Assembly (NCBI GenBank): GCA_036477795.1
Contig: JAZGDL010000332.1
Span: forward strand, 1-62,694
DNA length: 62,694 bases
Direction of reading: 5' to 3'
From: Phycisphaerae bacterium
Lineage (GTDB): Bacteria; Planctomycetota; Phycisphaerae; UBA1845
Shown: one piece after another, positions 21,472 through 57,538 of the stretch
Layout: each line of letters starts with the position of its first letter
Numbering within the stretch: the first letter of the stretch is position 1
The notes under the pieces: generated by a model
The model's database searches: none
What the model was told of the DNA's origin: nothing
Seen by the model: only the letters and a program-made list of their open reading frames with translations
Translations under genes and position numbers: made by a program

Positions 21472-21924
21472 CTACGGCCTCCGCCTCGTTTGCAGGATGC
21501 TCTCGACGTCGACCCTGGTGACCTCGCCGCCTTTGATCACCACCCCTATACGCGGCCGTGCTGCTCCGCCACCTTCCGGGACGACGAAGTATTTTCCGGC
21601 CGGAAGCTCTACGGTGGTCGGTTTCTCATCGTAGTTGCTGCGGTGGTTGGGAACATGTTGAACCAGGCCGCCCTTCTCGTCGTAGATTCTGTACGGTTGG
21701 TGCGGGTAGTACGAGACATCGCCATCCAGGAACGCACGCGTTTCCGTGTACACGATGAGATGGCCTGTCGGAGTGCGGAGCGGGCCGCTGGGCTCGACGG
21801 TGACTATGACCTCTCCAGGCGAGATTCGACCGTTCTGCGCGCAGGACACGGCCATCGCGCATATCGCAGCCAGAAGCAATGGTGTCGCACGCGACACCGC
21901 TAAGCTTGGTGGGGCTTCAGACAT
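21472..21924 (-). CDS. Hypothetical lipoprotein
   Basis: AVSC lipobox; LPAGKYFV beta-sandwich-like segment; repeat family A lies in its signal region. Confidence 0.65.
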   Translation of the reverse strand: MSEAPPSLAVSRATPLLLAAICAMAVSCAQNGRISPGEVIVTVEPSGPLRTPTGHLIVYTETRAFLDGDVSYYPHQPYRIYDEKGGLVQHVPNHRSNYDEKPTTVELPAGKYFVVPEGGGAARPRIGVVIKGGEVTRVDVESILQTRRRP

Positions 21925-21957
21925 TGCTTGCTCCCAAAGGGTGCTCTTACCACCCTA

Positions 21958-27079: not shown

Positions 27080-27257
27080 AGTGGGATGAATTCAGAATGT
27101 CGAACAGCGAATGGCGAAAGACGTCATGCGGAACGCCCCCGCGAGTCCCTGCGGAAGCGCTCCCCTGTCGGGTCGCGGTTAAACATTCGCTATTCGCTAT
27201 TCGACATTCGCTATTGGCGGAGAAGAGGTGTCGCACGCGACACCGCTAAGCAATGCC

Positions 27258-28187
27258 ATGACCGAAAACGCGAAACCTGCGGAAGCAACGGATTCGAATC
27301 ACGCTCCCTTACGGTCGCGTCTCGGTGGTGCTCCCGTGGTGTGGTCCTTCGCGATCCTCTTCGCCTTCTGGATGTTCTTTCAGATCGGCGTTCCCTTCAT
27401 CGCGAAATGGGTCACCGGGAAGGAGACCGCGAGCCTGACCGTCGACCTGGTCTTCACGCGGATGCAGTTCGAGGACGTCAAGGTGGGCGCGCCGCTTCCA
27501 GCCAGTCTGGTGAAGATGTACATGGGCATGACCACCGTGGCCATCCTTGTCTACATCAGCATCACGGACGTTGGGCTCCAACGGTTCGTCGCGCCCGTGC
27601 GGAATCTCTTGTTGGTGGAGAAGCCCAAGGGGCTCGTAGCGTTCAAGTACGCTTGCATGGCCGCCTTCGCGTTCCTGATCGCGTTCCTGGTCTACGATGC
27701 GAACCGGTTCCATTTGGAGCCGCCGACGGAATTGCGAACGATCCACCCCACGCTGCCGGGCAAGTACCTCGATATGAGCAATCCCTTCCCCTGGACGGAG
27801 GAGAACATCAAAGAGGGGCGCGAGCTCTATGTCGCCAACTGTTCCTGGTGCCACGGAGACCGGGCCGACGGGAACGGGCTGTTGGCCGGCGGGTTCAATC
27901 CGGCTCCGATCGATTTCTCCGCCGCCGGAACGATCGACATGCTGCCCGAGAACTACCTCTTTTGGAGGATCAAAGAGGGCGGCGCGGGGCTCCCCAACGA
28001 ATCCTGGCCGTGGGCGTCCGCTATGCCGGCTTGGAACCCGTCGGGCAAGGGGACCGGAAAGGTGTCGCACGCGACACCGCTAAACTTGGATATCCCGGCA
28101 GAGCATCGCTTGAGCGACGAAGACATATGGCTGGTCATCATGGGAGCCTACGATGTCGCGGGGCGGAAACCCGCAAAGAGAGACTGA
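27258..28187 (+). CDS. Membrane-anchored monoheme cytochrome c (set 1)
   Basis: Three hydrophobic helices; CSWCHG; LFWRIKEGGAGLP..PWASAMPAW. Confidence 0.88.
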   Translation: MTENAKPAEATDSNHAPLRSRLGGAPVVWSFAILFAFWMFFQIGVPFIAKWVTGKETASLTVDLVFTRMQFEDVKVGAPLPASLVKMYMGMTTVAILVYISITDVGLQRFVAPVRNLLLVEKPKGLVAFKYACMAAFAFLIAFLVYDANRFHLEPPTELRTIHPTLPGKYLDMSNPFPWTEENIKEGRELYVANCSWCHGDRADGNGLLAGGFNPAPIDFSAAGTIDMLPENYLFWRIKEGGAGLPNESWPWASAMPAWNPSGKGTGKVSHATPLNLDIPAEHRLSDEDIWLVIMGAYDVAGRKPAKRD

Positions 28188-28188
28188 G

Positions 28189-29913
28189 ATGAAAGGGCTG
28201 CACGCTCCCCTTCGGGTCGCCGCTAAACTCAGTGCTCTGGTGGTGATCGCCTGCGCCCCCCACCTGGGGCGAGCACAGGAGACACCTCCGCCTGAGAACG
28301 AGGAGACCGTCCAAGCGGGCAAGATCATCTATGAGATGCGCTGCGCAGCGTGTCACGGGCTGGAGGGGGACGGCCAAGGCCTGGCGGCGCCCCACATGCT
28401 CCCACAGCCTCGCGACTTCACGGACATCGTCTATAAGCTCCGCAGCACGGCCTCGGGGGAGCGGCCCCTTGAAATCGACCTGTTCCGGACGGTCAGCCAG
28501 GGGGTCCCCGGAACGCCCATGACCTCTTGGCAGGAGATTCTCTCGGAGCGGCAGCGCTGGCAGGTGGTGCACTACATCAAGACGTTCGCGGCGGAGGATT
28601 GGGCGGAGGAGCTGCCCGAGGACGTGGTCATTAAGCTTCCCGACTGGGAAGGGGTGGGGGGTGTCGCACGCGACACCGCAAAACGGGGAGATGATAGGAC
28701 GCTGGCGCGCGGCAAGAAGCTGTATGAAGTTCTCAAGTGCGGGGAGTGCCACGGGGACGGAGGCAAAGGTAACGGACCCAGCGCCAAGACGGTGCAAGAC
28801 GAGTTCGGCAACCCGATGTGGCCGGCCGACCTGACACGTCCCGACCTGTTCCGCGGTGGGAGCGGGATCCAGGACATCGCGCGGGCCTTTATCACGGGCC
28901 TGGGCACTACGCCCATGCCCTCCTATGACGACTATTTCACGCTGTTCAGCGAGAGCGAAGACCTGCCGGAAGACCAGGTAATCCTGCACGTTCCCCGCGA
29001 TACCAACGCCCTGGCGCTGGCACACTATGTCCTGAGCCTGGGCGCGAATCAGAGCCCCAAGCGCCAGCGCCGGGAGGAACAGCAGATCCTGGCGAGCTAC
29101 ACCGACGGAGAGATTCCGGACGATCCGGATTCTCCAGAGTGGGACAAGACCCAGGGCGTGATCATGAAGCTGTCGGCCCAGTTGACTGTAGCACCGAGAT
29201 GGCAGTTCGCCAACGTCGATCGCCTCCTGGTGGATGCTCTGTACAACGACGAGGAGCTCGGCATCCTCATCCAGTGGGACGACCGCACCGAAGACCGCGA
29301 GCACGAGGAGGACGACTACAAATTCGAGGCCCGCTCCAAGTCGGTCGCCCTCCCGACGCGGAACGACCTCGCAGAGCTGAGGCAGAAGGCGTTCGCTGAC
29401 GCGCTATCGATCCAGTTTCCCACCGGGACTGGAGAGGGGGCGAAGCGGCCCTTCTTCGCGCTGGGCGAGCCCGAGGCGCCGGTGGAGAGTTGGCGCTGGC
29501 AAGCCAGCCCGCTGGTCCGGGCGCTGGCAAACCAGCCTGCTGGTCGGGATGGCGAGAGATTTACGGCGAAGGGCTTTCATCTTCCGCCGGAGAACGTGGA
29601 GGAACTCTTCACGAACGCGAAATACGACGACGGCCGCTGGAAGGTCGTGTTCAAGGTCGCGATCGCGGAGGATAAGAGGTTTACGCCGGGGCAATACCTG
29701 CCGATCGCGTTCGCGGCGTGGGACGGCTCGAATGGCGAGAGTGGCACGCGGTGCTCGATCTCCTCGTGGTATTGGTTCCTCTTGAAACCCCGGGGAAGTG
29801 CTGCGCCCTACGCCTACGCCCTGTTGGCCTTCGTGATGATTGGTCTCGGCGAGTTCTTACTGATCAAGAGATTGAGAGAGAACCAACAAGATCCGGCCAT
29901 GCAGATTATCTAG
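28189..29913 (+). CDS. Diheme cytochrome c fused to an EbdC/NxrC-like heme b (DOMON-like) domain, C-terminal anchor (set 1)
   Basis: CAACH and CGECH; PRDFT..YKLRST; QWDDRT, DALSIQFP, AFAAWDGSNGE; C-terminal helix. Confidence 0.85.
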   Translation: MKGLHAPLRVAAKLSALVVIACAPHLGRAQETPPPENEETVQAGKIIYEMRCAACHGLEGDGQGLAAPHMLPQPRDFTDIVYKLRSTASGERPLEIDLFRTVSQGVPGTPMTSWQEILSERQRWQVVHYIKTFAAEDWAEELPEDVVIKLPDWEGVGGVARDTAKRGDDRTLARGKKLYEVLKCGECHGDGGKGNGPSAKTVQDEFGNPMWPADLTRPDLFRGGSGIQDIARAFITGLGTTPMPSYDDYFTLFSESEDLPEDQVILHVPRDTNALALAHYVLSLGANQSPKRQRREEQQILASYTDGEIPDDPDSPEWDKTQGVIMKLSAQLTVAPRWQFANVDRLLVDALYNDEELGILIQWDDRTEDREHEEDDYKFEARSKSVALPTRNDLAELRQKAFADALSIQFPTGTGEGAKRPFFALGEPEAPVESWRWQASPLVRALANQPAGRDGERFTAKGFHLPPENVEELFTNAKYDDGRWKVVFKVAIAEDKRFTPGQYLPIAFAAWDGSNGESGTRCSISSWYWFLLKPRGSAAPYAYALLAFVMIGLGEFLLIKRLRENQQDPAMQII

Positions 29914-29939
29914 CTCGAGATAGAAGTGAGGACAATCGT

Positions 29940-30959
29940 ATGAAGCTAAGAACATTTTTTGCCGTCCCAGTCCCGATGTACATCGGGATGATCGCGGTCC
30001 TGGGAGGATGCGTTGCAGTATCCGGCGCGCCCGGCGAACAGAAAGGTGTCGCACGCGACACCGCTAAGCGAAGAGATGTCGCACGCGACACCTTGGAACA
30101 TTCCGGCGCGCAATCCGCAATCCGCAATCCGCAATCCTCAATCCCCAATCCCCAATCCCCAATCCGCAATAGGATTGAGAGGTTGCACTGGGAAGATGCG
30201 ATCGCCATTAAGACCCCTGTTTCCTATGATCTGGTGGAGCTCGGTCGCAGGACGTACAACACGCGTTGTCTTATCTGCCACGGACGGGAAGGGCACGGGG
30301 ACGGGTCGGCAGCGAACTACCTCGACACCAAACCGAGGGATTTCACCAAGGCCATCTTCAAGTATCGCACTACGCCCCAGGGATCTTTCCCGCGCGACGA
30401 GGACCTCTTCCGATCCATCAGCGTCGGCTTCCCCATCTACGGCATGCCCTCCTTCCACTATCTCTCCGCCCGCCAGCGGTGGGGCCTGGTCTACTACGTG
30501 GAGAAGCTCTGTGAGGCAGGTTTCCGAAAGAGCCTGGAAGACGACGGGGACTCCGACCCTGACGAGATCAAGGAGATCCTCGACGAGAGGCTCACGCCGG
30601 AAAAGCCCCTCGACGTGGGCAACGCGCCGGAATGGAACGACGACGCCATCGCGCGAGGCAAGACGGTCTACCAGGAGCTCCAGTGCGCCACCTGTCACGG
30701 TGACAGGGGCATGGGCGACGGGCCTTCCGCCAATGATCAGACGGACGTATGGGGCAACGAGCTCACACCCGTGCCCTTCGCGCTGAACCCGTACTTCATG
30801 AAGGCTGGTGGTCGGCCGCGGGACATCGTTCGGGTGCTCATGACCGGCGTGGGCGGAACGGGCATGCCCCGGTTCGAAACGCAGAATCAGGACGATTACT
30901 GGAAACTCGCTTACTACGTCCTGCAACTCGCCGACGAGCGCTCCGAAGAGAACCAGTAA
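29940..30959 (+). CDS. Diheme cytochrome c
   Basis: CLICH and CATCH; PRDFT..FKYRTT; GMPSF and GMPRF distal Met. Confidence 0.88.
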   Translation: MKLRTFFAVPVPMYIGMIAVLGGCVAVSGAPGEQKGVARDTAKRRDVARDTLEHSGAQSAIRNPQSSIPNPQSPIRNRIERLHWEDAIAIKTPVSYDLVELGRRTYNTRCLICHGREGHGDGSAANYLDTKPRDFTKAIFKYRTTPQGSFPRDEDLFRSISVGFPIYGMPSFHYLSARQRWGLVYYVEKLCEAGFRKSLEDDGDSDPDEIKEILDERLTPEKPLDVGNAPEWNDDAIARGKTVYQELQCATCHGDRGMGDGPSANDQTDVWGNELTPVPFALNPYFMKAGGRPRDIVRVLMTGVGGTGMPRFETQNQDDYWKLAYYVLQLADERSEENQ

Positions 30960-30980
30960 ATGTTCTGGAGAATAATAAGG

Positions 30981-31796: not shown

Positions 31797-34022
31797 ATGA
31801 AGGAACTCCTGTCCCCGCGCTGGCGCTTGGGGCTCGGAATTCTGCTACAGGTTGTTCTGGCCGGTGGTGTCGCTCCCCAGGCGCGGGGCGACGATGCGAA
31901 AATGGTGGAACTGGGGAGGATGCTCTTCTTCGAGAACCGCCTCTCGGGCGACGACGGATTCTCCTGCGCTAAGTGCCACGATCCCGAGAAGGCCTTCACC
32001 GACGGGCTGGCCCTTTCGAAAGGCTATCCGGGAACCATGTATTTCCGGAACACCAAGACCGTGATGAACGTCGGCGAGATGGAGTCCCTGTACTGGGACG
32101 GGAGACTCTCCGGCAAGGACCTCCCCACACTCGTGCGCGACCACATCGCGGAATCGCACTTCATGAACACCGACGGCCGGCTCCTCAGCGAGCGGCTCCG
32201 GCAGGTTCCCTATTACGAGAGGACGTTCCGAGAGGTGTTCCAGACGGAGCCGCGCTACGGCGGTATCCTCAAGGCGGTGGCAGCGTTCCTGCGCACGCTC
32301 AACTCCGAGAACGTGCCCTTTGATCGGTTCCTTGACGGGGACCGGAGCGCCATCTCCGAAACCGCGAAGAAGGGCTACGAGCTTTTTACCGGCAAGGCCG
32401 GCTGCGCAAACTGTCACAAAAGCCCACGGGTTGCAACCCGTGGGCGTTCGGAGTTGCTGACCGACGGCAAGTTCCACAACACCGGCGTCCCGATGAACGA
32501 TGAAATCTTCGCAGAGCCGATGCGACACATCGTCTTCAGGAGGTTTTTCAAGACCTTCGGTGTGGCGGGCTACGGCGATCTTGATGAGGACGTGGGACGG
32601 TACGCCGTGACCAAGAACGCCGCGGACCGTGGCGCTTTTCTCACCCCGAGTCTGAGAGAGGTAAGCCGGACGGCGCCCTACATGCACAACGGGATGCTCA
32701 AGACCCTCACCGACGTCGTGGACTTCTACAACCGCGGCGGCGGGAAAGCCCACGGATTGGAATCCGTGGGCTTGAAGGCGCTGGGACTCACGAAGCAGGA
32801 GAAGGAGGCCCTGGTCGAGTTCCTCAAGACGCTGAGCGGGGACAAACTGGTGGTGGAGGTTCCCAAGCGGCTCGAATACGAACTGCGCCCGCTTCCTACG
32901 TTCCATGCTCCGCCCATCGAAGACGAGGGCGGCGACATCGGGACGATCGTCGACTTCCGGTCGGTTCCTCCGATCGGGGCGCTGCCCGAGCCGCCCATCC
33001 CGCCGGACAATCCTGTAACCGAGGAGAAGGTCGAACTGGGAAAGTTACTCTTTTTCGACTCGCGTTTAGCTGGCGACGCATCCAACTCCTGCGCCTCCTG
33101 CCACGATCCGAAACTGGGCTGGGGCGATGGGATCGACCTGTCGCGCGGCTATCCGGGGACCAAGCACTGGCGAAACGGGAACACGGTGATCAACTCCGCC
33201 TACTTCAAGAAGCTCTTCTGGGCCGGCTCGGTGACCAGCTTGGAGAAGCAGGCCAACAGCGCCATCACCGGCAACGTGGCCGGCAACGGCGATCCCATGA
33301 TGATCGAGGAGCGCTTAGCGCAGATTCCGGAGTACGTGGAACGGTTCAAGAAGGTCTTCGGCACGGAGCGGCCGCTCTACGGGGACGTCCTGAAGGCCAT
33401 CTCCACGTTCGAGCGGAAGATGGTCATCTCCCGCAACACGCGTTTCGACCGCTACGCGCGGGGCGAGAGGACAGCCCTGAGCGCGTCGGCCAAGCGGGGT
33501 CTGGACCTCTTCCAGGGCAAGGCGCGGTGCATCCTGTGCCACAACGGTCCGAACTTCACCGACGAGGACTACCACAACCTTGGCGTTGGGGAGAACGAGG
33601 CCTTTGCCCAAGACGTTCAGAGGCAGATCACCCTCCGCTTCGAGTATTTCGCGAAGGGCGTACCGGAGCGTTACTACCACGAGGCCCGATGGGACCTGGG
33701 CCTGTTCTACCGGACAAAGCATCCTCGCGACATGTGCAAGTTCCGCACGCCTCACCTGCGCGAGCTGAAGTGGACGGTCCCGTTCATGCACAACGGGGTG
33801 TTCTACACGCTGGAGGAGGTGGTGGACTTCTACGACCGGGGAGGCGACGAGTCACCCGGCAAGAAGGACCCGCTGATAAAGCCTCTGAACCTGACCAAGA
33901 AGGAAAAGAAGGATCTCATCAAGTTCCTGGAAAGCCTCTCCAGCAAGAAGAAGCCGCTCCAAATCAGACCACCCGTTCTTCCGGAGTACGCGGTGATGAT
34001 ACCGAAAGGGCTAGACAAATGA
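31797..34022 (+). CDS. Fused tandem diheme cytochrome c peroxidase/MauG protein (IdrP1-P2-like)
   Basis: Two CcP units: LGRMLFF..CAKCH..CANCH..TAPYMHNG and LGKLLFFD..CASCH..CILCH..VPFMHNG; an alternative start lies at 31770. Confidence 0.9.
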   Translation: MKELLSPRWRLGLGILLQVVLAGGVAPQARGDDAKMVELGRMLFFENRLSGDDGFSCAKCHDPEKAFTDGLALSKGYPGTMYFRNTKTVMNVGEMESLYWDGRLSGKDLPTLVRDHIAESHFMNTDGRLLSERLRQVPYYERTFREVFQTEPRYGGILKAVAAFLRTLNSENVPFDRFLDGDRSAISETAKKGYELFTGKAGCANCHKSPRVATRGRSELLTDGKFHNTGVPMNDEIFAEPMRHIVFRRFFKTFGVAGYGDLDEDVGRYAVTKNAADRGAFLTPSLREVSRTAPYMHNGMLKTLTDVVDFYNRGGGKAHGLESVGLKALGLTKQEKEALVEFLKTLSGDKLVVEVPKRLEYELRPLPTFHAPPIEDEGGDIGTIVDFRSVPPIGALPEPPIPPDNPVTEEKVELGKLLFFDSRLAGDASNSCASCHDPKLGWGDGIDLSRGYPGTKHWRNGNTVINSAYFKKLFWAGSVTSLEKQANSAITGNVAGNGDPMMIEERLAQIPEYVERFKKVFGTERPLYGDVLKAISTFERKMVISRNTRFDRYARGERTALSASAKRGLDLFQGKARCILCHNGPNFTDEDYHNLGVGENEAFAQDVQRQITLRFEYFAKGVPERYYHEARWDLGLFYRTKHPRDMCKFRTPHLRELKWTVPFMHNGVFYTLEEVVDFYDRGGDESPGKKDPLIKPLNLTKKEKKDLIKFLESLSSKKKPLQIRPPVLPEYAVMIPKGLDK

Positions 34023-34600
34023 GCAAGACAAACGAATCCGAGCCCCAAGCGCCAGCGCGGGGAATGGAAACCCCGACCTGCACCTCTCGGCGTACCTTCC
34101 TGCTGGCCGGCGGGACGGTGGTGGCCGGGACGGCCCTGGCGACCGTGTTCCCGGGCATCACCTTTGCCGACGACCGGGACACGGTGTTCAAGGCGGCAAA
34201 GTACCCGAGGAAATGGGTGGCAGACGCGAACAAGCTCGTCGAGGGCAAGCCCGTGCGGTTCTTCTATCCCTACGAGGAGCCGCACTGTTCGAGCTCTATC
34301 GTGAAACTGGGAACGAAGGCGGGCGGCGGCGTTGGGGCTGGAAAGGACATTGTCGCGTTCAACACGATGTGCCCCCACATGGGCGGCACGCTCGATGGGC
34401 AATACTGTCACCAGGTGAAGGTTCAGGGCCCCTGTCCCATCCATCTTTCGACGTACGACCTGACGCGGCACGGAATGACCATCGCCGGTCACGCCACCGA
34501 ACCTCTTCCGCAGGTCGTCCTGGAGGAGAAAGGCGGACAGATCTACGCGGTCGGCATGCTTGGACTTATCTACGGCTACGCGAGTCACCTCGCGCGCTAA
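34019..34600 (+). CDS. idrB: Rieske [2Fe-2S] small subunit of the AioB/IdrB family, Tat signal
   Basis: SRRTFL twin-arginine motif; GGGVG..DIVAFNTMCPHMG and CPIHLSTYD..GHATEPLPQV. Confidence 0.85.
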   Translation: MSKTNESEPQAPARGMETPTCTSRRTFLLAGGTVVAGTALATVFPGITFADDRDTVFKAAKYPRKWVADANKLVEGKPVRFFYPYEEPHCSSSIVKLGTKAGGGVGAGKDIVAFNTMCPHMGGTLDGQYCHQVKVQGPCPIHLSTYDLTRHGMTIAGHATEPLPQVVLEEKGGQIYAVGMLGLIYGYASHLAR

Positions 34601-34619
34601 TAACAGCAAGGAGTTGGCA

Positions 34620-46988: not shown

Positions 46989-49027
46989 TGAAACGCAAGG
47001 GACGAAGGGACGAAGGGACGAAGGGACGAAGAGACGAGACCAACGAGTTTAGCGGCGACCCGAAGGGGAGCGCGTACCCTCGCGCCGGCGATACCATCCT
47101 CGCCGTAGACCCCCTAACCCCCGACCAGTCGGACCGGACAAGTCCGACTGGTCGGTCCGCGATCTATCGGTCCATCTTGTTGGCGGTCGACTCCTCCGAC
47201 CACTCCGACCGCGCTACCGAGGAGGCGGCGGCGCTGGCCGCCCTGTACGGCGCACAGGTCACCGGCGTGCACGTCTACGCTGCCAAGCTGCACGACCTGC
47301 GATTCCGCCAGATGGAGGGCGGCCTACCGGAGCAGTATCGCCAAGAGCAGGAGTTGGAGCGACAGCGCGACATACACGATGACCTGATCACCCGCGGCCT
47401 GTCCGTCATCACCGACTCCTACCTGGACCAGGCCGAAAAGGTCTGCCAACGCCAAGCGGTGCGCTTCGCCCGGCGGAGCCTGGAAGGCAAGAACTACCGC
47501 GAGCTGGTCACCGAGGCCAACCGACCAGTCGGACTTGTCCGCGGCGGCTACGACCTGTTGGTCTTAGGCTCGCGCGGCCTGGGGGCGATCGAAGGCGGGA
47601 ATCTAGGAACTGTCTGCCAGCGCGTGGCCCGCCGCAGCGCGATCGACACTCTGATCATCAAGGAGCCCAAGCGGCGGCTGTCGGAGGGCCCTATCGTTGT
47701 GGCGGTCGACGGTTCGGATCGGGCCTACGGCGGCCTGTTGACCGGCTTGAACCTGGCGCGGCACTGGGAGGTGCCCGTCGAGGTGGTGGCTGCCTACGAC
47801 CCGCACTACCACTACGTGGCCTTCAACCGCATCGCCGGCGTGCTCTCGGAGGAGGCTCACAAGGTGTTCCGCTTCAAGGAACAGGAGAAGCTGCACGAGG
47901 AGATCATCGACTCGGGTATCGCCCGCATCTACGAGTCACACCTAAAGATGTCCGAAATGATCGCCGGAGATCTCGGCGCCGAGGTGACGACGGTGTTGCT
48001 GGAGGGCAAGCCCAATCACGTCATCGAGGAACACGTCAGACGAGTGAAGGCATCGCTACTGGTAGTCGGTAAGTTGGGCATCCACGCGGACGATGGTCTT
48101 GACATTGGAGGCAACGCCGAATCGCTACTCCACGGCGCCCCTTGCGCGGTGCTGCTAAGCGAGCGGACCTACCGTCCCCCGTTGGATGAGGTGGCGGAGC
48201 TGACCATGTCCTGGACCAAGGAAGCCGAGGGTATGATGGAGGCGGTGCCGCAAATGGTTCGCAAAATGGCGCGCATGGGCATTCTGCGCTACGCCCAAGA
48301 GCGGGGGCACACCGTGATCACCGGCAAGATTGTCGAGGAGGTGACCAAGCTCATGTGTCCGGTTCGACCCGATGGGAGAGCGTCCGAAACCACCCGCTTA
48401 GCGGTGTCGCGCGCGACACCCCATTGGTCGGTGGAGGCCCTGGCTCGTTTGGCGCGCGTGCCGGCGGGTTTCATGCGCGACGCCACACGCCAGCGTATCG
48501 AAGACTACGCCCTTAAGGTCGGCGCCGGCGAAGTCACCCTGGAGGTGGCGGAACAGGGAATCGCCCAAGCGAAGCAGGCCATGCACGAGGCCGCACGCGA
48601 CGGAACCGATCCGAGCCCCAAGCGCCAGCGCGGGGAACGCGAAGAGCCCGCGCTCACCTGGACCGCAGAGGCTGAGCAAGCCCTGCTCAGGGTGCCGGAA
48701 GGATTTATGCGGGACTTAACGCGACAGCGGGTGGAGGCCTTTGCCAGCCGCCACGGCAAGAACGAGGTGACCAAGGATGTCATGGACGCAAAGTACGCCG
48801 AGTGGGGAGAGGGCTCTGCCAGCCAACGGTCCGAACTCCCCTGGGACGACGACACACTGGAACACGTCGGCCGGATTCCCGAGTTCGTCCGCGGAATGGT
48901 CATCAAGGAGGTGGAAGGGTGTGCTCGCCGAATGGGCGTTGAGGCCGTCTCCATGAAGGTGCTGGAGCACGCCCGTCGCACCTGGCAGGAGCACGGCGTT
49001 TTTCACTCGGAGGACAACCTACAGTAG
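46988..49027 (+). CDS. Tandem universal stress protein domains fused to four PCP_red-like helical domains
   Basis: ILLAVDSSDHS and IVVAVDGS; GSRGLG and GKLG; four W(T/S/D)xxA...(V/I)PxF(M/V)R-type units. Confidence 0.88.
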   Translation: MKRKGRRDEGTKGRRDETNEFSGDPKGSAYPRAGDTILAVDPLTPDQSDRTSPTGRSAIYRSILLAVDSSDHSDRATEEAAALAALYGAQVTGVHVYAAKLHDLRFRQMEGGLPEQYRQEQELERQRDIHDDLITRGLSVITDSYLDQAEKVCQRQAVRFARRSLEGKNYRELVTEANRPVGLVRGGYDLLVLGSRGLGAIEGGNLGTVCQRVARRSAIDTLIIKEPKRRLSEGPIVVAVDGSDRAYGGLLTGLNLARHWEVPVEVVAAYDPHYHYVAFNRIAGVLSEEAHKVFRFKEQEKLHEEIIDSGIARIYESHLKMSEMIAGDLGAEVTTVLLEGKPNHVIEEHVRRVKASLLVVGKLGIHADDGLDIGGNAESLLHGAPCAVLLSERTYRPPLDEVAELTMSWTKEAEGMMEAVPQMVRKMARMGILRYAQERGHTVITGKIVEEVTKLMCPVRPDGRASETTRLAVSRATPHWSVEALARLARVPAGFMRDATRQRIEDYALKVGAGEVTLEVAEQGIAQAKQAMHEAARDGTDPSPKRQRGEREEPALTWTAEAEQALLRVPEGFMRDLTRQRVEAFASRHGKNEVTKDVMDAKYAEWGEGSASQRSELPWDDDTLEHVGRIPEFVRGMVIKEVEGCARRMGVEAVSMKVLEHARRTWQEHGVFHSEDNLQ

Positions 49028-51769: not shown

Positions 51770-52996
51770 GTGATGGATGCAGCGATGGAATTCGTGCCGT
51801 ATGTCATCTCCTGGAACCTCACCGCCAGGTGCAACCTGCGCTGTAAGCATTGCTACATCGACGCCTCCAAACCGATGCCCGGCGAACTTTCGACGGCGGA
51901 AGCGCTACGCGTTCTCCATGAGATTGCGGAGGTGAACTCCGAGACTCTCTTGATTCTGACCGGCGGCGAACCGCTGATGAGGCCTGACCTGGAAGAGCTG
52001 GTCGCGCGAGCCTCCGGGTTGGGCATGACGGTGGTCCTCGGGACGAACGCCACGCACCTCACGGAGGATCGCGCACGCGCCCTGGCGGAGCAAGGCCTGG
52101 CGGGAGTGGGGGTCAGCCTTGATTCACTCCTTGCTTGGCGCCACGACGACTTCCGCGGCGTCAGAGGTGCGTGGGAAGCGACCTTGCGGGGGATCGACGC
52201 CGCCCGCCGCGCCGGGATCGATGTGCAGATACAGATGACGCTGACCCGTGAAAATGTCCGCGAGCTACCGGCGGTCGTACGCTTTTCGCAGGAGACCGGG
52301 GCCCGCGTGGTAACCGTGTTCTTTCTGGTCTGCACGGGCCGCGGGCAAGATGTAGTGGACCTGACACCGGAGGAATATGAGCACACCTTGCAGTGGCTCG
52401 TCGGTGTAAAACACGACGGAATCATGATCCGTCCCCGCTGTGCCCCGACGTTCCGCCGCGTGCTGGCCCAAAAGGATCCCGACTCGATCCTGCTGAAATC
52501 CGACGCCGGTCGCTGTATGGCGGCGAAGAACTACTGCAGGATCACTCCTGACGGCAAGGTCACGCCATGCCCCTACATGCCCTTGGTCGCGGGGGATATG
52601 CGGAAGGATTCCTTCGGGATGATCTGGGAAAAGGCTCCGCTGTTTGAGTCGTTGCGGAACCCGTCGCTGCAAGGCCGCTGCGGGGATTGCGAGTATCAGG
52701 AGCTTTGCGGGGGGTGCCGCGCCCGGGCCTACGCGGCCACCGGAGATCCACTTGCCGAAGATCCCTGGTGCACATACGTTCCCGGGACCGATCCGAGCCC
52801 CAAGCGCCAGCGCGGAGAGCGCGAAGAGACCACCATCACCTGGACGGCACAAGCCGAGGCTCGCATCGAAAAGGTTCCGTTCTTCGTGCGGAGGATGGTT
52901 CGCTCCGTCGTTGAGGCGGCTGCTAGACGAGAGGGGCTCGCAAAGGTTACAGTTGAGGTGTTGGATAAAGCACGACGGAGGGTGAGGTCGCGATGA
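51770..52996 (+). CDS. Radical SAM/SPASM protein (NirJ/AhbD/PqqE-like) with a C-terminal PCP_red-like domain
   Basis: WNLTARCNLRCKHCY, TGGEPL, CMAAKNYCRITPDG..PCPY, CGDCEY..CGGCRARA; WTAQAEARIEKVPFFVR. Confidence 0.9.
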   Translation: MMDAAMEFVPYVISWNLTARCNLRCKHCYIDASKPMPGELSTAEALRVLHEIAEVNSETLLILTGGEPLMRPDLEELVARASGLGMTVVLGTNATHLTEDRARALAEQGLAGVGVSLDSLLAWRHDDFRGVRGAWEATLRGIDAARRAGIDVQIQMTLTRENVRELPAVVRFSQETGARVVTVFFLVCTGRGQDVVDLTPEEYEHTLQWLVGVKHDGIMIRPRCAPTFRRVLAQKDPDSILLKSDAGRCMAAKNYCRITPDGKVTPCPYMPLVAGDMRKDSFGMIWEKAPLFESLRNPSLQGRCGDCEYQELCGGCRARAYAATGDPLAEDPWCTYVPGTDPSPKRQRGEREETTITWTAQAEARIEKVPFFVRRMVRSVVEAAARREGLAKVTVEVLDKARRRVRSR

Positions 52997-53703
52997 CACG
53001 GAAGGTTGAATCGAAGACCGTCAAGATGCCGGCGGTGTTTCTGGAGTGGCAATGCCAGGAACGCCAAACCATGTTTGCTGCTTTGCGGCGCGGTGAGCAC
53101 CCGCGATTCCTGGCTAGCCACCTGCCGGTGCTAAGCACGCTCAACAGCGAACCGACCGCGTTTCCTATTCATGCATCAACGAAAGGCGTAGGACTTTTTC
53201 CCAAGGAGGAGCACCTGGCCGAGCATGTCGACGAAATCAGCGACTGTCTGGCACGATCAGAGCATAAGCATGCGCCGGACTCCCTCGACGAGCGCATCGA
53301 GACCACCCTGTCCCTGTACAATCGACCGGAGCGCATCGATCAGGGGGTTTTCGGAGGCATTGAGATCTTTCGCGGGCAGACCTATCGCAATCTGCTGATC
53401 GACGCCCGCGCTTCGTTGCTCTTCACGGGCTTTGGCCCTCAGTACTTGAGCTACCAGTTCAACTGCGACGTGGAACTCGTCGAGCCGCAAGATGCTCGTT
53501 TCGAGTTTCTGCGGGGCATGCGCTTGCTCTTTGAGCAAGAACGATTCCACATCCAACAGCCGGAACACACGCTGGGCTATGTCTTCCACATCCGGGAAGT
53601 CTTCGACAAGACACCACGAGCGTTGGTCGGAGGAAAGCAGAGGGCATGCCCGCTCCGCGCCGGGCCCGGCCCACACCGAAGCCCCCCCCAACCCTTCGCT
53701 TAG
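52993..53703 (+). CDS. Hypothetical protein, possibly an FMN-binding split-barrel fold
   Basis: ATGA overlap; QTYRNL..ASLLF..SYQFNC..EVFDKTP pattern; its stop codon is supplied by repeat family A. Confidence 0.6.
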   Translation: MTRKVESKTVKMPAVFLEWQCQERQTMFAALRRGEHPRFLASHLPVLSTLNSEPTAFPIHASTKGVGLFPKEEHLAEHVDEISDCLARSEHKHAPDSLDERIETTLSLYNRPERIDQGVFGGIEIFRGQTYRNLLIDARASLLFTGFGPQYLSYQFNCDVELVEPQDARFEFLRGMRLLFEQERFHIQQPEHTLGYVFHIREVFDKTPRALVGGKQRACPLRAGPGPHRSPPQPFA

Positions 53704-53747
53704 CGGTGTCGCGTGCGACACCCTGCCGTCTATCGGTCCATCTCCAA

Positions 53748-55115
53748 TCAACCGCGTTGCGGTAGGTTCTCCGGCGACCGCAACCGCGCTTTGAGTGTGT
53801 TCCTGGCTACACCGAGAACTCGGCAGGCTTCGGACAGATTCCCGTTGACCTGATCCACGATGTACTCCATGTACCGCCGTTCCATTTCAACAAGCGAAGG
53901 CATGGCACCCGAGCCTTTCGCCGCATGGCGACGCACAAATGCGGACATCTGGAAGTCTCCCGGCAGTTGCTCGGGAGAGACGGCTTCCGCCTTGCTAAGG
54001 ATCGCGGCACGCTCCATTACGTTCCGGAGCTCGCGGACGTTGCCCGGCCAATCGTAGGCGAGGAGGGCTTCCTCGGCCTGCGGAGTTAGAGTCAGAGGTT
54101 GCTTGCGCAACGCCGCCGCGGATCGCTGAAGGAAGAACCGCCCCAGCAATACCACGTCGGGCCCGCGCGCCCGTAGCGGAGGTACCGTAATCTGAAAGGC
54201 GTTGAGTCTGTAGTACAGATCCTGCCGAAAACTACCGGATCGGATGCATGCCCGCAGGTCACGGTTCGTGGTCGCAATCACGCGCACATTCGTCTGGATC
54301 TCACGACGGCCGCCGACCCGCCGAAACGGTTGCCCCTCCACAACACGCAGCAGCTCCGACTGCAGACCGGGCTTCATCTCCGACACCTCGTCGAGTAGGA
54401 GGCTGCCGCCGTCGGCCATCTCAAAGAGTCCAGCGCGAGCCTGTTCGGCATCCGTGAACACGCCCTTCTCGTGGCCGAACAGCTCGCTTTCCAGGATCTG
54501 TTCGGAAAACGCGCTGCAGTTGAGTTTAATGAGCGGCCCCGCGGAACGCGAAGAAAGACGGTGGATCGAATCCGCAACCAGTTCCTTACCAGTTCCAGTC
54601 TCTCCGACAACGAGCACCGGCGTGTCGGCCTCGGCCACCAGGCGTGCCTCTTCCCGGACCCGCTCAATCGCGGGGCTCTCTCCGAGAATCTCCGTGATTC
54701 TGTCACGGGTACGGTGTTCACGCTCGAGGCGGCGAACGTCGTGCCGCAGCTTCCGGGCTTCGAGGGCGCGCTCCACGGACAAGTGGAGCTCTTCGAGCTC
54801 AAAAGGCTTGACGATGAAATCGCGCGCTCCTTCCTTCATCGCCCGCACCGCAGTCTTTACTTCCGGGAAGGCCGTTATCACAATCACGAGGATTTCTTCA
54901 TCAAGGTCGCGCACCTTGACCAGGAAGTCCAGGCCCGAACCGTCGGGCAGGCGGATATCCAGCAGCACCAGGTCAATCTTGCGCCCGTGGATCAGCCGAT
55001 CGGCCTCCGATAGCGTGGACACGCCGATGATCTGGTGTCCTCGCCGCCGGAGCGACTTCTCCATGGAGGATCGAAGCCCCTCGTCGTCTTCCACGATGAG
55101 CGTAGTGGTTCTCAT
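53748..55115 (-). CDS. Sigma54-dependent (NtrC-type) response regulator
   Basis: Receiver LLDIRLPD; GETGTGKE; ESELFGHEKGVFTDA; FRQDLYYRL; WPGNVRELRN; Fis-type HTH. Confidence 0.93.
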   Translation of the reverse strand: MRTTTLIVEDDEGLRSSMEKSLRRRGHQIIGVSTLSEADRLIHGRKIDLVLLDIRLPDGSGLDFLVKVRDLDEEILVIVITAFPEVKTAVRAMKEGARDFIVKPFELEELHLSVERALEARKLRHDVRRLEREHRTRDRITEILGESPAIERVREEARLVAEADTPVLVVGETGTGKELVADSIHRLSSRSAGPLIKLNCSAFSEQILESELFGHEKGVFTDAEQARAGLFEMADGGSLLLDEVSEMKPGLQSELLRVVEGQPFRRVGGRREIQTNVRVIATTNRDLRACIRSGSFRQDLYYRLNAFQITVPPLRARGPDVVLLGRFFLQRSAAALRKQPLTLTPQAEEALLAYDWPGNVRELRNVMERAAILSKAEAVSPEQLPGDFQMSAFVRRHAAKGSGAMPSLVEMERRYMEYIVDQVNGNLSEACRVLGVARNTLKARLRSPENLPQRG

Positions 55116-57538
55116 GACCGATCTACCACAGACCTGTCCAACCTGGTCTGCTTCGACGGGTCAGTCTCGCCTGCGCCTTCGACCTGCCACGCAGGAAACG
55201 TCAGCGTGAAGACCGTCCCGTCACCCGCGTCGCTGCGCACTTGGATCGTCCCTCGGTGGTCCTCAACAATCTTCTGGCAGATCGAAAGACCGAGCCCGGT
55301 CCCTTCCGATCTTGTGGTGAAGAACGGGTCCCAGATTCTGTCGACGATCTCCGGAGGAATGCCCGACCCCCGGTCGATCACCTCGATTCTGACCCCACCG
55401 GCCGCAGCCCGCTCTTCGACACCGGCTGCTGGACCGAGAATCCCTTCTCGGTCCCCGCTAAGCGCACGGGTGCGAGAAAGGGTTCTCGCACCAGCACACA
55501 CCTTCACCAGGACCTCATCGCCGTGGGATGAGGCCTCCATCGCGTTCAGGATCAGATTCATCAGGAGATGTCGCAGTTGGTCAGCATCGCCGCGAATTGT
55601 GGGAGTCTCCCCGCTTGACGCTACACGCAACGATATCCCCCTTCTTCGTAGCTCCGGCGTCACAAGAGTCGTCACGCCCTGGACAACCTCCGCCAGGGAA
55701 ACCACCTCCATGCAGGGCTCACGTCCCTTGCCAAGGCGCGAAAACGAGCGGAGGAACATCGTGAGTCGGTCCACCTCCAGGAGAATCTCGCAACAAAGAG
55801 ATTGGCAGTTGCTACACAGGGTGCTGTCCTCCTCGGCAACCTGAATCTTGGTCTTAATGGCAGCAAGCGGGTTACCAACTTCGTGCATTACCCCGGCGGT
55901 CATCTGTCCGATCGACGCCATCTTGTCGGCGCGGGCCAGTGCGGTCTGTAGTTGGTGAAGATCATCCGTCTGTCGCGCTACCTCCCGCTCGAGCTTCTCG
56001 TTCCAGGCCGACACGCGCGCACGGGCTTCGAGCAGCCGCTTTGTCATTGTGTTGAAGTCGCTGGCCAACCCTTCGAGCTCATCGCCCGTGGTGACATCTA
56101 CGTGTCTTGACAAGTCGCCCGCGGCGATCTCGCGCGTGGCACGACGCAGCCTCATAATGGGACGAGCCAGGTAACTACCCGTCAGTACTCCCAGCACGCC
56201 CGCCGCTAAGACGGCAACCACCAACACGATCGACAGAAACGCCGTCAAGTGGCGAATCGGGGTGTCAATCGGTGCGCGAGGGTAGGCAACCAATAGAGTC
56301 CATCGCCCCTCCGCGCCGCCGCCGGGTTCGATTGGTGTGGAGGATACAAAGGCGCCGGACGTCTCAAGGATTGAGTGGGCTGGCCGGTGCTCCAGAATCG
56401 CGGAGGCCTCCTCGGGGCTGAAGTCCTGCGAAAGCCGACGCCCCTGCCCGAGTCTGAACAGCTTCCGACGTGCCTCCGATTCGCCGGCGTAGCCCAGGTA
56501 TGTCCCGTCATTGTCGACCAACCAAGCCTCCGTAGCGAGGGGAAGAGGCGCCAGCAGCGATAGCACGTAGTCCGCGTACAGGTTAATCACCACCAGGCCG
56601 CATCCCCGGCCGTCCGACCCGCGTACGCGAACTGCGTAACGCACAACACCGCGGTGAGGGAGTTCTACTTGACCATGCTCGACATTCAGGTCCATGAGCG
56701 ACACGTAGATTTGCCGCGGTTCCAGAGTCACCGCTTCGGTCACGTAATAGCGGTCGCTCTTGTCCTGAAGCCGCTCGGGCGGTACGATCTCAACTTGACC
56801 CTTATCGATATTGAGCCGGATGACCTCGCGCCCGGTGTCGTCAAGGTAGCGAACCTGGTAGTAAGCGCGCTTGCCTTGAGCGAATATGGCAAGTTCCCGC
56901 TCCGCCACGCGGCGCAAGTCGTTCAGTTGCTCTGCTCGGCAGGCGCCTCGCACTCCCGTAGTCAAGGAGGCCCCGGGTGTCGCGCGCGACACCGTTAAGC
57001 GAAGACAAGCTGCGAGATCCCGGACCGGGGCCAGTTCGCTCACGAAACGCAGGTCCCCTCGTACGCCTTCCAGGAATTCGCTGATGGCGCGCACCCTGGA
57101 TGCGGCATCAAACTCCAGGCGCTGAAGCGCAGTTGTTCTAAGGGCCGTGCGCACCGATGAGATCGTAAAGAGCCCCACGAAGATCGTTGGAACAACGGCG
57201 AGGATCACCATGGGAACGACAATCTTGGTGCGCACGCGAACGTGCTGGAGGCGTCTCCGCCAACCCTTTGTCGAAACGGGAAGCGCGGGCTCGTCCAGCG
57301 AGGAGTCGTGCAACCAGCGAAGCAAGAGCACAGTCGCGAGCGCGGCGGAGATCACCGCCGCGCACAGCCATCGCATGATACGGAGCAGATGCAGAAGTTC
57401 CGGGTCGACGCTCCTCAGCCACGCTCGCTCGACGATCTCGTAGCCCAGGAACAGAACGGTGATCGGCAGGAGACATACGCCAAGGGAGCGTAGCCAGGGC
57501 AGTCCCGCGAAACCTGTCGACCGGCGCAGCTCAGGCAC
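55112..57538 (-). CDS. Membrane sensor histidine kinase (Cache-like + HAMP + HisKA + HATPase)
   Basis: LQDKSDRYY periplasmic motif; HAMP DELEGLASDFNTM; HEVGNPL; NLILNA; DRGSG, PFFTT, GTGLGL. Confidence 0.9.
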   Translation of the reverse strand: MPELRRSTGFAGLPWLRSLGVCLLPITVLFLGYEIVERAWLRSVDPELLHLLRIMRWLCAAVISAALATVLLLRWLHDSSLDEPALPVSTKGWRRRLQHVRVRTKIVVPMVILAVVPTIFVGLFTISSVRTALRTTALQRLEFDAASRVRAISEFLEGVRGDLRFVSELAPVRDLAACLRLTVSRATPGASLTTGVRGACRAEQLNDLRRVAERELAIFAQGKRAYYQVRYLDDTGREVIRLNIDKGQVEIVPPERLQDKSDRYYVTEAVTLEPRQIYVSLMDLNVEHGQVELPHRGVVRYAVRVRGSDGRGCGLVVINLYADYVLSLLAPLPLATEAWLVDNDGTYLGYAGESEARRKLFRLGQGRRLSQDFSPEEASAILEHRPAHSILETSGAFVSSTPIEPGGGAEGRWTLLVAYPRAPIDTPIRHLTAFLSIVLVVAVLAAGVLGVLTGSYLARPIMRLRRATREIAAGDLSRHVDVTTGDELEGLASDFNTMTKRLLEARARVSAWNEKLEREVARQTDDLHQLQTALARADKMASIGQMTAGVMHEVGNPLAAIKTKIQVAEEDSTLCSNCQSLCCEILLEVDRLTMFLRSFSRLGKGREPCMEVVSLAEVVQGVTTLVTPELRRRGISLRVASSGETPTIRGDADQLRHLLMNLILNAMEASSHGDEVLVKVCAGARTLSRTRALSGDREGILGPAAGVEERAAAGGVRIEVIDRGSGIPPEIVDRIWDPFFTTRSEGTGLGLSICQKIVEDHRGTIQVRSDAGDGTVFTLTFPAWQVEGAGETDPSKQTRLDRSVVDRS

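What the first reader, a model, noticed from the sequence alone, without database searches (positions are those of the whole stretch)
21881..56998. Many palindromic repeats inserted in-frame inside the respiratory genes, creating peptide inserts
Seen: families A (9 copies), B (6) and C (6) lie mostly inside CDSs, in both orientations and in different frames, with no frameshifts. They give recurring peptides: VSHATPL / GVARDTAK / LAVSRATP (A), FSGDPKGSA / LPFGSPLN (B) and PSPKRQRG / EPQAPARG / SPRWRLGLG / NPALALGAL (C). Paralog comparison supports insertion: 27258 reads AMPAW-NPSGKGTGKVSHATPLNLDIPAEHR-LSDEDIW, while 40894 reads AMPPW-GEED-LTDDEIW. Families A and B share a CCGCTAA/TTAGCGG end. 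Known: REPs are normally extragenic; Rickettsia palindromic elements are the classic intragenic exception. Inference: an active repeat-dispersal system is writing into loops, linkers and signal peptides, with selection keeping only in-frame events. This could act as a source of protein sequence or as mRNA structure control along a long operon.
Basis: partly seen in the sequence, partly recalled or inferred. Interest (0 to 1): 0.8.

Follow-up and report, generated by a model that had tools for sequence, protein, structure and literature searches.

The report
REP-type hairpin repeats inside respiratory genes
Short mobile hairpin repeats of the REP kind, which normally sit between genes, have landed in frame inside many cytochrome and oxidase genes of this bacterium and add short peptides in loops, linkers and signal peptides; this is a rich new example of a phenomenon already described in a few other bacteria.

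Summary
The window has 9 A, 6 B and 6 C copies encoding the quoted peptides. I place 15 of 21 inside CDSs, 4 at uncertain 5' edges and 2 between genes.

They are recent, lineage-specific additions. A at 28660 is a clean 10-residue insert missing from 10 of 10 homologs. C at 36146 is missing from all 7 cluster mates (88-95% identical) that span the site. B at 37939 is missing from both 90%-cluster mates.

The genome (4.9 Mb MAG; a cluster mate is labelled Hydrogenedentota) holds about 2,000 such hairpin repeats in at least 16 families. It has 21 matches to the REP-associated tyrosine transposase model, 5 over cut-off. Several of these genes are flanked by their own repeats, including B on both sides and A on one side.

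Genome-wide, 205 of 1,922 copies are strictly intragenic, against 49% of random positions.

Verdict: REP/RAYT-type elements tolerated at permissive coding sites. Intragenic REPs are in print (PMC3733652), so this is a new member of a known kind. The unexplained parts are different families occupying the same site and variable net insert lengths.

The parts
21881..21905 (+). Family A copy, intergenic. Its TAA (21901-21903) ends ORF 21055-21903.
27227..27251 (+). Family A copy 7 nt upstream of ATG 27258 of a cytochrome c gene. It is 5'UTR, or N-terminal coding if GTG 27228 is the start.
   Evidence: The exact protein from ATG 27258 is not in the collection.
28061..28085 (+). Family A copy inside cytochrome c gene 27258-28187 (peptide KVSHATPLN). 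It lies within an insert of about 22 aa.
   Evidence: Paralog alignment. The insert is missing in 7 of 7 distant orthologs shown.
28202..28228 (-). Family B copy encoding the n-region of the signal peptide (APLRVAAKL) of gene 28189-29913.
   Evidence: the MKGLH start is shared with P0144, which has an F7-type peptide there. A relative's contig carries 66 other letters in place of 93.
28660..28684 (+). Family A copy. It is a clean 10-aa insert (GGVARDTAKR, 30 nt) between the two cytochrome c domains of gene 28189-29913.
   Evidence: Missing in 10 of 10 homologs. pLDDT is below 50 at residues 157-160. Strictly intragenic.
29048..29074 (+). Family C copy in the linker between the cytochrome c and EB_dh domains (SPKRQRR), net +3 aa.
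   Evidence: (10 of 10 homologs are 3 aa shorter).
30045..30092 (+). Two family A copies (30045, 30075) in the tether of a lipoprotein cytochrome, after the lipobox LGGC. They are followed by a (CAATCCG)n array at 30109-30170.
   Evidence: Coding status is inferred from the signal peptide upstream and the heme domain downstream in one open frame.
31813..31839 (-). Family C copy inside the signal peptide (SPRWRLGLG) of the di-heme peroxidase gene 31770-34022.
   Evidence: Both gene calls on record start upstream of the repeat.
32417..32447 (+). It is a 9-aa insert just after the CANCH heme motif of the peroxidase.
   Evidence: Missing in 7 of 7 orthologs shown.
32745..32764 (+). F2-family hairpin inside the peroxidase gene (KAHGLESVG).
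34036..34062 (+). Family C copy at the N-terminus or 5'UTR of the Rieske subunit. Its status depends on whether the start is ATG 34019 or 34067.
36146..36172 (-). Family C copy inside the arsenite-oxidase-like large subunit gene 34620-37268 (NPALALGAL).
37934..37960 (+). Family B copy in a loop between hydrophobic helices of the bd-like oxidase gene 37389-39548 (FSGDPKGSA).
41418..41444 (+). Family B copy inside cytochrome c gene 40894-41805, in a region absent from the paralog.
41879..41905 (-). Family B copy in the 5' region of gene 41819-43702. It is followed by an 8-nt tandem array at 41918-41956. Coding status is uncertain.
42760..42786 (+). Family B copy in the linker between cytochrome c and EB_dh domains. 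This is the same linker position as family C in the paralog.
43258..43308 (+). It lies inside an insert of about 21 aa in the EB_dh domain.
47047..47073 (+). Family B copy after an 8-nt tandem array (46997-47037) in the N-terminal region of the USP/PCP_red gene 46988-49027. It is probably coding.
   Evidence: relatives share the MKR start but lack about 39 aa..
48396..48420 (-). Family A copy in a hypervariable linker of gene 46988-49027 (LAVSRATP).
48609..48635 (+). Family C copy in a linker before a PCP_red domain (SPKRQRGE).
52791..52817 (+). Family C copy in the linker before the PCP_red domain of the radical-SAM gene 51770-52996.
53698..53722 (-). Family A copy between convergent genes. 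The TAG of its head (53701-53703) is the stop of ORF 52993-53703.
55428..55456 (+). F6-family hairpin inside the minus-strand histidine-kinase gene 55112-57598.
56976..57000 (+). Family A copy inside the sensor region of the minus-strand histidine-kinase gene (TVSRATP).
   Evidence: No ortholog test was done.

Best explanation
Families A, B and C are three of at least 16 families of REP-type elements: 23-30 nt units made of a hairpin plus a short conserved head. I found about 2,000 copies in this genome. They are most likely spread in trans by Y1 (HUH) tyrosine transposases of the RAYT / IS200-like kind encoded in the same genome, several of which are flanked by their own repeats.

Most copies lie between genes. 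A minority has landed inside coding sequences. Only copies that keep the frame, carry no stop codon and fall at tolerant places have survived. Those places are signal-peptide n-regions, lipoprotein tethers, interdomain linkers, surface loops and inter-helix loops. The recurring peptides are by-products of the DNA element read in whichever frame it landed.

SHOWN: repeat families and copy numbers; transposase genes flanked by cognate repeats; absence of the inserts from relatives; placement in poorly ordered segments; use of many frames.

INFERRED: that these transposases move these repeats; the single-strand hairpin mechanism; and that selection, not targeting, explains the in-frame outcome.
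For: (1) REPEAT LOAD. There are 2,024 distinct sites for 16 family cores. Unit consensus is 23-30 nt. A is a strong hairpin.

(2) TRANSPOSASES.
- 15 PF01797 matches.
- 21 NF047646 matches, 5 over the 80-bit cut-off.
- Classic arrangements with inverted cognate repeats on both sides: C23 with F1, C158 with GTAG-headed F3, C201, C184 with F7, and C32 with the full 52-nt family-B palindrome.
- C60 has family A pieces directly upstream only.
- The C32 and C60 proteins are 33% identical over 189 aa, E 6e-27. This matches the head shared by A and B.

(3) RECENT ADDITIONS.
- A 28660 is missing from 10 of 10 homologs (38-83% identical) as a clean 10-aa gap.
- C 29052 is +3 aa against 10 of 10.
- The C 36146 peptide is in none of the 7 cluster mates that span the site, nor in the 4 that begin within it, nor in 60 of 60 aligned homologs.
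- B 37939 is missing from both 90%-cluster mates.
- A 28061 and F2 32417 are missing from 7 of 7 distant orthologs shown.
- Contigs of relatives in two public runs agree. One spans 28564-29291 with 39 gap letters (= 30 + 9). Others replace 37926-37998 by 37 letters and 28194-28286 by 66 letters. All differences are multiples of 3.

(4) FRAMES. Intragenic copies genome-wide use many frames and both orientations.

(5) STRUCTURE. In the AlphaFold model of gene 28189-29913 (mean pLDDT 86.7), the A insert falls in a coil with pLDDT below 50 (residues 157-160). The 10-residue blocks holding the C insert average 76 and 81.

(6) DEPLETION FROM GENES. 205 of 1,922 copies are strictly intragenic, against 1,421 of 2,884 random positions. 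Families F9-F12 give 0 of 200.

(7) AGE. Intragenic copies are as close to consensus as the others. Detection was capped at 2 mismatches, so this is a weak point.
Against: - Net length changes are not one fixed unit: +30 nt (A 28660); +9 (C 29052); +6 against six of the seven full-length cluster mates, or 0 against P0133 and 57 of 60 aligned homologs (C 36146); +27 (F2 32417); about +66 (A 28061). Simple insertion of a 25-28 nt unit does not predict these.
- No cognate transposase was found for family C.
- The A- and B-linked proteins score below the curated RAYT cut-off: 60.8 and 39.4 against 80 bits.
- A has flanking repeats on one side only.
- Different families occupy the same site in three comparisons. 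Pure random landing plus selection explains this only if tolerant sites are very few.
- The intragenic classifier is home-made. Its best-frame accuracy is 525 of 600 on its own training ORFs.
- No nucleotide sequence of the closest relatives could be obtained, so exact junctions are unknown.
Confidence: 0.8

Rival explanations
1. Copying by short-patch gene conversion or template switching between repeat copies, seeded by chance microhomology, rather than (or besides) transposase-mediated insertion. A resident stretch is overwritten by a repeat, so length need not change by one unit.
For: - C 36146 replaces a segment of the same length as in 57 of 60 aligned homologs. It differs from a 95%-identical relative only in 8 against 6 residues, inside otherwise identical flanks.
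- C 29052 is net +9 nt although the unit is 27-28 nt, and its 3' end is shared with the relatives' RREEQQ coding sequence.
- Different families replace each other at one site.
Against: - A 28660 and F2 32417 are clean gaps of about one unit, 30 and 27 nt.
- The genome has many transposase genes flanked by cognate repeats.
- No DNA of close relatives was available to test for microhomology.
Confidence: 0.2
2. The intragenic hairpins are kept because they do something at those positions, on the mRNA or on DNA. Examples would be pausing translation at domain borders or in signal peptides of exported cytochromes, or setting mRNA stability within the long operon.
For: - Same-site occupation by different families in paralogs and in relatives.
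- Enrichment of strictly intragenic A/B/C copies in this window: 10 of 21 against 41 of 210 elsewhere, Fisher p 0.0099.
Against: - Relatives and orthologs do without the inserts.
- B and C are no more stable than shuffled sequence.
- Copies occur in either orientation.
- No Rfam family matches in the window.
- Nothing on expression could be tested.
Confidence: 0.1
3. Assembly artefact: repeats were wrongly threaded into genes while the MAG was assembled.
For: The genome is a fragmented MAG of 568 contigs, and repeats break assemblies. Many transposase genes sit at contig ends.
Against: - Every insert keeps the frame and lacks stops.
- A second assembly record, with a 75,970-nt contig, gives identical proteins. 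It may come from the same reads.
- Relatives carry other repeat families at the same sites within intact proteins.
Confidence: 0.02
4. The recurring peptides are protein-level motifs under selection.
For: The same peptides recur in many proteins.
Against: - One DNA unit is read in up to six frames and in both orientations.
- It also occurs between genes in far larger numbers.
- Homologs lack the peptides.
Confidence: 0.01

Closest known systems
REP / REPIN elements with RAYT transposases (REPtrons), as in Escherichia, Pseudomonas and Stenotrophomonas
   Same: - Units of 20-40 nt made of a hairpin plus a conserved head, in high copy number and several families per genome.
- Y1 transposase genes flanked by inverted cognate repeats.
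- F3, F5 and the C201 family carry the GTAG head.
- Mostly extragenic.
   Different: - A and B carry a TTAG(CGG) head, not GTAG.
- Their linked transposases fall below the curated RAYT cut-off.
[quoted passage not shown]
- The intragenic share is far higher for A (22 of 67), B (6 of 25) and F2 (49 of 203).
Intragenic GTAG/CGTC REPs of Opitutus terrae, Thauera, Xanthomonas and others (Di Nocera et al. 2013, PMC3733652; abstract and passages read)
   Same: - REPs lie entirely inside ORFs that encode known proteins.
- They include singles and dimers and are frequent at N-termini.
- The authors suggest a neutral location in flexible linkers or loops.
- Different REPs lie at about the same site in recB of two Xanthomonas species.
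- GTAG termini supply stop codons to flanking ORFs.
   Different: - The phylum differs: the label Hydrogenedentota comes from one cluster mate's name.
- The targets here are respiratory genes, not the replication and repair genes stressed there.
- The families are different.
- I could not see that paper's Additional file 3 (the list of intragenic REPs) or Figure 7, so numbers cannot be compared.
Rickettsia palindromic elements (RPE). Recalled, and cited in a passage of PMC3733652.
   Same: Palindromic repeats inserted in frame into genes that likely remain functional, adding peptide segments.
   Different: - RPE-1 is a longer palindromic insertion than the short REP-like RPE-4 and RPE-6 (passage). 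An RPE-1 size of about 100-150 bp is recalled, not from a call. The units here are 23-30 nt.
- No sequence relation was tested or expected.
- The host here is free-living with a 4.9 Mb genome.
IS200/IS605 TnpA single-strand transposition (PMC6006769, abstract in the listing only)
   Same: A Y1/HUH transposase fold (PF01797 matches) and recognition of subterminal hairpins.
   Different: - The repeats here carry no transposase gene and are far shorter than an IS.
- The mechanism is inferred, not tested.

Membership tests
REP / REPIN-RAYT system | Short (about 20-40 nt) imperfect palindromes in many copies | tested here: met
   67 A, 25 B and 142 C sites. 2,024 sites for 16 families. Units are 23-30 nt. 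The hairpin is strong for A and weak for B and C.
REP / REPIN-RAYT system | Conserved GTAG (or CGTC) tetranucleotide head | tested here: inconclusive
   F3, F5 and the C201 family have GTAG. F4 has GTGG. A and B have TTAG within GTTTAGCGG. C and F7 share ATCCGAGCC.
REP / REPIN-RAYT system | A tyrosine transposase gene flanked by the same repeats in inverted orientation | tested here: met
   Met for B (C32, both sides), F1 (C23), F3 (C158), F7 (C184) and F5 (C410). A has flanking repeats on one side only (C60). C has none found.
REP / REPIN-RAYT system | The transposase scores as RAYT by the curated model NF047646 (cut-off 80 bits) | tested here: not met
   Not met for the A- and B-linked genes: C60 scores 60.8 bits and C32 39.4 bits. 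Five other genes in the genome pass: C158, C216, C201, C23, C299.
REP / REPIN-RAYT system | Predominantly extragenic location | tested here: met
   205 of 1,922 copies are strictly intragenic, against 1,421 of 2,884 random positions. In this window the share is higher, 10 of 21.
REP / REPIN-RAYT system | The transposase cuts and joins the cognate single-stranded hairpin | not testable with these tools
   This needs a biochemical test.
Rickettsia palindromic elements | RPE consensus sequences and lengths, in the genus Rickettsia | not tested
   It was considered only as a functional analogy. The units here are 23-30 nt. No RPE sequence was available from a tool.
MITE (miniature inverted-repeat transposable element) | 70-300 bp with 15-30 bp terminal inverted repeats (definition in a passage of PMC3733652) | tested here: not met
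   Units are 23-30 nt. The longest form seen is the 52-nt B palindrome.

The most novel reading that the evidence does not exclude
Intragenic positions act as fixed 'landing pads' where REP families replace one another. The same linker, loop or signal-peptide position holds C in one paralog and B in the other. It holds B here and an F4-type repeat in a cluster mate of at least 90% identity. It holds B here and an F7-type repeat in an 83% relative.

This would mean hairpin-targeted insertion or conversion that can overwrite coding DNA with patches that keep length and frame. It could also mean selection for a hairpin at domain borders of exported respiratory proteins.
Probability: 0.15. Interest if true: 0.7.

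Novelty: new member of a known kind. Interest (0 to 1): 0.45.

Why it matters
- It extends REP/RAYT biology to a poorly known phylum and to core energy-metabolism genes.
- It gives a natural catalogue of positions in multi-heme cytochromes, a bd-like oxidase and an arsenite-oxidase-like enzyme that tolerate 3-22 extra residues.
- Close relatives with empty, differently filled or replaced sites offer material to work out how REPs actually enter DNA, which remains an inference here.
- For annotation, such repeats inflate 'novel' peptide motifs, shift predicted start codons and break assemblies.

Tried and rejected
- The held genome collection has no second genome of the window's genus. The best ortholog of gene 28189-29913 among 40 relatives is 34% identical.
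- The metagenome scan with the arsenite-oxidase-like protein returned nothing closer than 74% and no syntenic close relative. Scans of those loci for the family cores gave only scattered hits at up to 3 mismatches, which may be chance.
- Sequencing runs: only two small-share DNA holders, 0.07 and 0.05 of the words, and no RNA holder listed. Laying them gave contigs of relatives, not read-level support for the window itself.
- Rfam at gathering thresholds gave 0 matches in the window.
- The PDB sequence search of the peroxidase segment showed only that the region after CxxCH varies among solved relatives.
- The paper search for Hydrogenedentota together with 'palindromic' or 'REP' listed nothing on such repeats among the 10 rows shown. 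The term 'rep' mostly hit journal names. This is weak evidence that the case is not in print.
- A codon-only coding model separated frames poorly, so I replaced it with a dicodon model.
- F2 counts were inflated by a 6-nt offset of the palindrome. They are corrected.

Full report
WHAT IS THERE

The window is a whole 62,694-nt contig (C260) of a 4.9 Mb, 568-contig, 61% G+C MAG. One protein that shares a 90% cluster with the window's arsenite-oxidase-like subunit is labelled Candidatus Hydrogenedentota by its source.

Region 26-50 kb encodes respiratory proteins (Pfam; PDB sequence matches):
- mono- and di-heme cytochromes c, some fused to an EB_dh heme-b domain;
- a di-heme peroxidase;
- a Rieske protein and an arsenite-oxidase-like molybdoenzyme;
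- two bd-like oxidase subunits;
- a USP/PCP_red protein.

Part of the set is duplicated as paralogs at 27258-31724 and 40894-46988.

CHECKING THE OBSERVATION

The quoted peptides are the translations of these units in open frames.

The repeats are not chance. With up to 2 mismatches there are 67 A, 25 B and 142 C sites in the genome. The unit consensus is:
- A: GGTGTCGCACGCGACACC followed by GCTAAAC;
- B: CGTTTAGCGGCGACCCG.AGGGGAGCGC;
- C: ATCCGAGCCCCAAGCGCCAGCGCGGGG.

A folds into a 7-bp stem, -11.4 to -13.7 kcal/mol over 3 copies, with z -0.78, -2.12 and -2.77. B and C are bulged hairpins no better than shuffles.

ARE THEY INSIDE GENES?

I trained a dicodon model on the genome's long ORFs. 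I called a site strictly intragenic when both 50-codon flanks have the same best frame and that frame is open throughout.
- Random positions pass in 1,421 of 2,884 cases.
- Ten of the 21 window copies pass.
- Five more are coding on other grounds:
  - A 28061 lies 34 codons before the stop, within an insert missing from 7 of 7 distant orthologs shown.
  - B 28202 and C 31813 lie in signal peptides whose start is fixed by homologs or by both gene calls on record.
  - A 30045 and A 30075 lie between a lipoprotein signal peptide (…LGGC) and the heme domain in one open frame.
- Four copies sit at uncertain 5' edges: 27227, 34040, 41879, 47052.
- Two are intergenic: 21881 and 53705. There the head's TAA or TAG is the stop codon of the ORF that runs into it.

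So 'mostly inside CDSs' is right: 15 of 21.

Other families also sit in window genes:
- F2 hairpins at 32417 and 32745 in the peroxidase;
- an F4/F8 inverted dimer at 43258-43308;
- F6 at 55428 in the histidine kinase.

ARE THEY INSERTIONS?

Gene 28189-29913, compared with 10 homologs of 38-83% identity:
- A 28660 is a clean 10-residue gap in 10 of 10.
- C 29052 is +3 residues in 10 of 10.
- The signal peptide holds B here, an F7-type peptide (SPLRSRLGG) in the 83% relative P0144, and nothing comparable in the relatives with shorter N-termini, such as P0145-P0147.

The arsenite-oxidase-like subunit:
- A 95%-identical protein differs locally only at the C site. It reads ERSAAM--TL against ENPALALGAL, within fully identical flanks.
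- Of 14 other members of the 90% cluster, 7 span the site and 4 begin within it. None has the C peptide. Six of the 7 are 2 residues shorter. One (P0133) has another 8-residue segment.
- Among 60 aligned homologs none has the peptide. 57 have the window's length there, 2 are 2 shorter and 1 is 4 longer.

The bd-like oxidase, inter-helix loop:
- The window reads RFSGDPKGSAGF.
- Cluster mate P0138 reads CGTGFQPVG, which matches the F4 family read with a 1-nt shorter loop (compare the F4 peptides).
- Cluster mate P0139 reads Q---APSAGAGF.

Contigs of relatives in two public runs agree:
- One spans 28564-29291 with 39 gap letters (30 + 9).
- Others replace 37926-37998 by 37 letters and 28194-28286 by 66 letters.
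- These contigs are 82-90% alike and show relatives. They do not give read support for the window itself.

Distant orthologs on metagenome loci lack the 9-aa F2 insert after the CANCH motif (7 of 7). Six of 7 shown lack the stretch of about 21-23 residues that holds the F4/F8 dimer, and L076 aligns differently there. Seven of 7 lack about 9 residues at B 42765.

THE GENOME-WIDE PICTURE

A k-mer survey found many more hairpin families. Sixteen cores give 2,024 distinct sites.

The strictly intragenic share is 205 of 1,922, or 10.7%. By family:
- A 22 of 67
- B 6 of 25
- F2 49 of 203
- C 23 of 139
- F1 and F3-F8: 6-11%
- F9-F12: 0 of 200

The repeats are therefore depleted from genes, as REPs are. 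Some families are tolerated much more often than others.

In this window the A/B/C share (10 of 21) is higher than elsewhere (41 of 210; Fisher p 0.0099).

Intragenic copies use many frames and both orientations. They are as close to consensus as other copies (detection was capped at 2 mismatches).

THE LIKELY ENGINE

The genome has 15 matches to Y1_Tnp and 21 to the REP-associated tyrosine transposase model. Five of the latter are over the curated cut-off.

Genes flanked by inverted cognate repeats are:
- C23 (F1);
- C158 (F3, with GTAG head);
- C201 (another GTAG family);
- C184 (F7);
- C410 (F5);
- C172 (F9);
- C71 (F10/F11).

The gene on C32 is flanked on both sides by a 52-nt palindrome. 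The window's B copies are one arm of it.

The gene on C60 has family A pieces directly upstream and none within 500 nt downstream.

The C32 and C60 proteins are 33% identical, E 6e-27. Both score below the RAYT cut-off. No partner was found for family C.

Among the 30 related genomes searched, PF01797 matches range from 1 to 14, against 15 here.

WHERE THE INSERTS SIT IN THE PROTEIN

The model of gene 28189-29913 has mean pLDDT 86.7 and pTM 0.84, from a 45-row alignment.
- The A insert is in a coil between helix 120-139 and helix 169-181. pLDDT is below 50 at residues 157-160.
- The C insert is at the junction of the second cytochrome domain and the beta-rich EB_dh domain. Block means are 76 and 81.
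- The B-encoded segment is at the start of the N-terminal signal helix. Block means are 48 and 65.

WHAT REMAINS ODD

First, net length changes are +30, +27, +15, +9, +6 or 0, and about +66 nt. They are not one unit length. So either insertion is untidy and only in-frame outcomes survive, or resident sequence is overwritten by conversion.

Second, different families occupy the same position in three comparisons:
- C against B in the paralogous linkers;
- B against F4 type in the oxidase loop;
- B against F7 type in the signal peptide.

A published passage notes the same for recB of two Xanthomonas species (PMC3733652). Very few tolerant sites, repeat-targeted insertion, or selection for a hairpin could each explain this. 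I cannot tell them apart without the relatives' DNA.

COMPARISON WITH WHAT IS KNOWN

Intragenic REPs, their frequent N-terminal position, dimers, the stop codon supplied by the head, and the 'flexible linker or loop' reading are all in Di Nocera et al. 2013 (PMC3733652; abstract and passages read). In-frame fusion of small repeats with genes is reviewed in PMC3184786 (passages read).

I did not see the supplements of either paper. The finding is therefore a new member of a known kind. Three features make it worth a modest follow-up: its density in respiratory genes, the TTAG-headed A/B pair with its own transposase subfamily, and the site re-use.

Noticed in passing
window 27185-27215, 30109-30170, 31736-31762, 39751-39782, 41918-41956, 46997-47037: Tandem arrays of 7-nt (CAATCCG-like) and 8-nt (GGGACGAA / GGCACGAA-like) units sit at or just inside the 5' ends of respiratory genes. 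Genome-wide there are 213 heptamer and 163 octamer arrays of 3 or more units. Unit lengths are not divisible by 3, so a change in copy number inside a CDS would shift the frame. That is a possible on/off switch.
   Followed up: partly
protein P0265 (relative of gene 46988-49027), compared with window 37955-37995: The linker of this 73%-identical relative reads EPRAPARGSSTGRSLRSS. That is a C-type peptide followed by residues identical to another-frame translation of the window's bd-like gene just 3' of its B copy; 13 residues (ARGSSTGRSLRSS) are shared in all. The DNA stretch is unique in G000. It may be a repeat that carried flanking DNA along, or recombination between the similar ends of B and C.
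   Followed up: partly
window 43222-43266: A perfect 15-nt x3 tandem (CAAAGGTGTGGGACC; PKGVG x3) duplicates the head of the F4-type repeat and its flank in frame, inside gene 41819-43702.
   Followed up: no
window 27258-31724 and 40894-46988: The respiratory module is present twice as diverged paralogs at 35-45% identity: cytochrome c, di-heme/EB_dh cytochrome, and bd-like oxidase with 37389-39548. An arsenite-oxidase-like pair lies between the copies at 34019-37268.
   Followed up: partly
window 60038-60330 and 39596-39703: Arrays and inverted pairs of the F1 and F6 families lie around the start of ORF 60177-62693 and upstream of the cytochrome gene at about 39723.
   Followed up: no
window 11704-14457: A 917-aa ORF has six copies of a 55-nt cysteine-rich repeat (…DCDDGLFCNG.ETC…). 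These are protein-domain repeats unrelated to the hairpin families.
   Followed up: no
window 20791-20905: A 57-nt inverted repeat with 1 nt between the arms, 75% complementary, contains a genome-wide repeated motif (GGGGGACATACACTTTAAT). The same motif lies just upstream of the Y1 transposase gene on contig C269.
   Followed up: no
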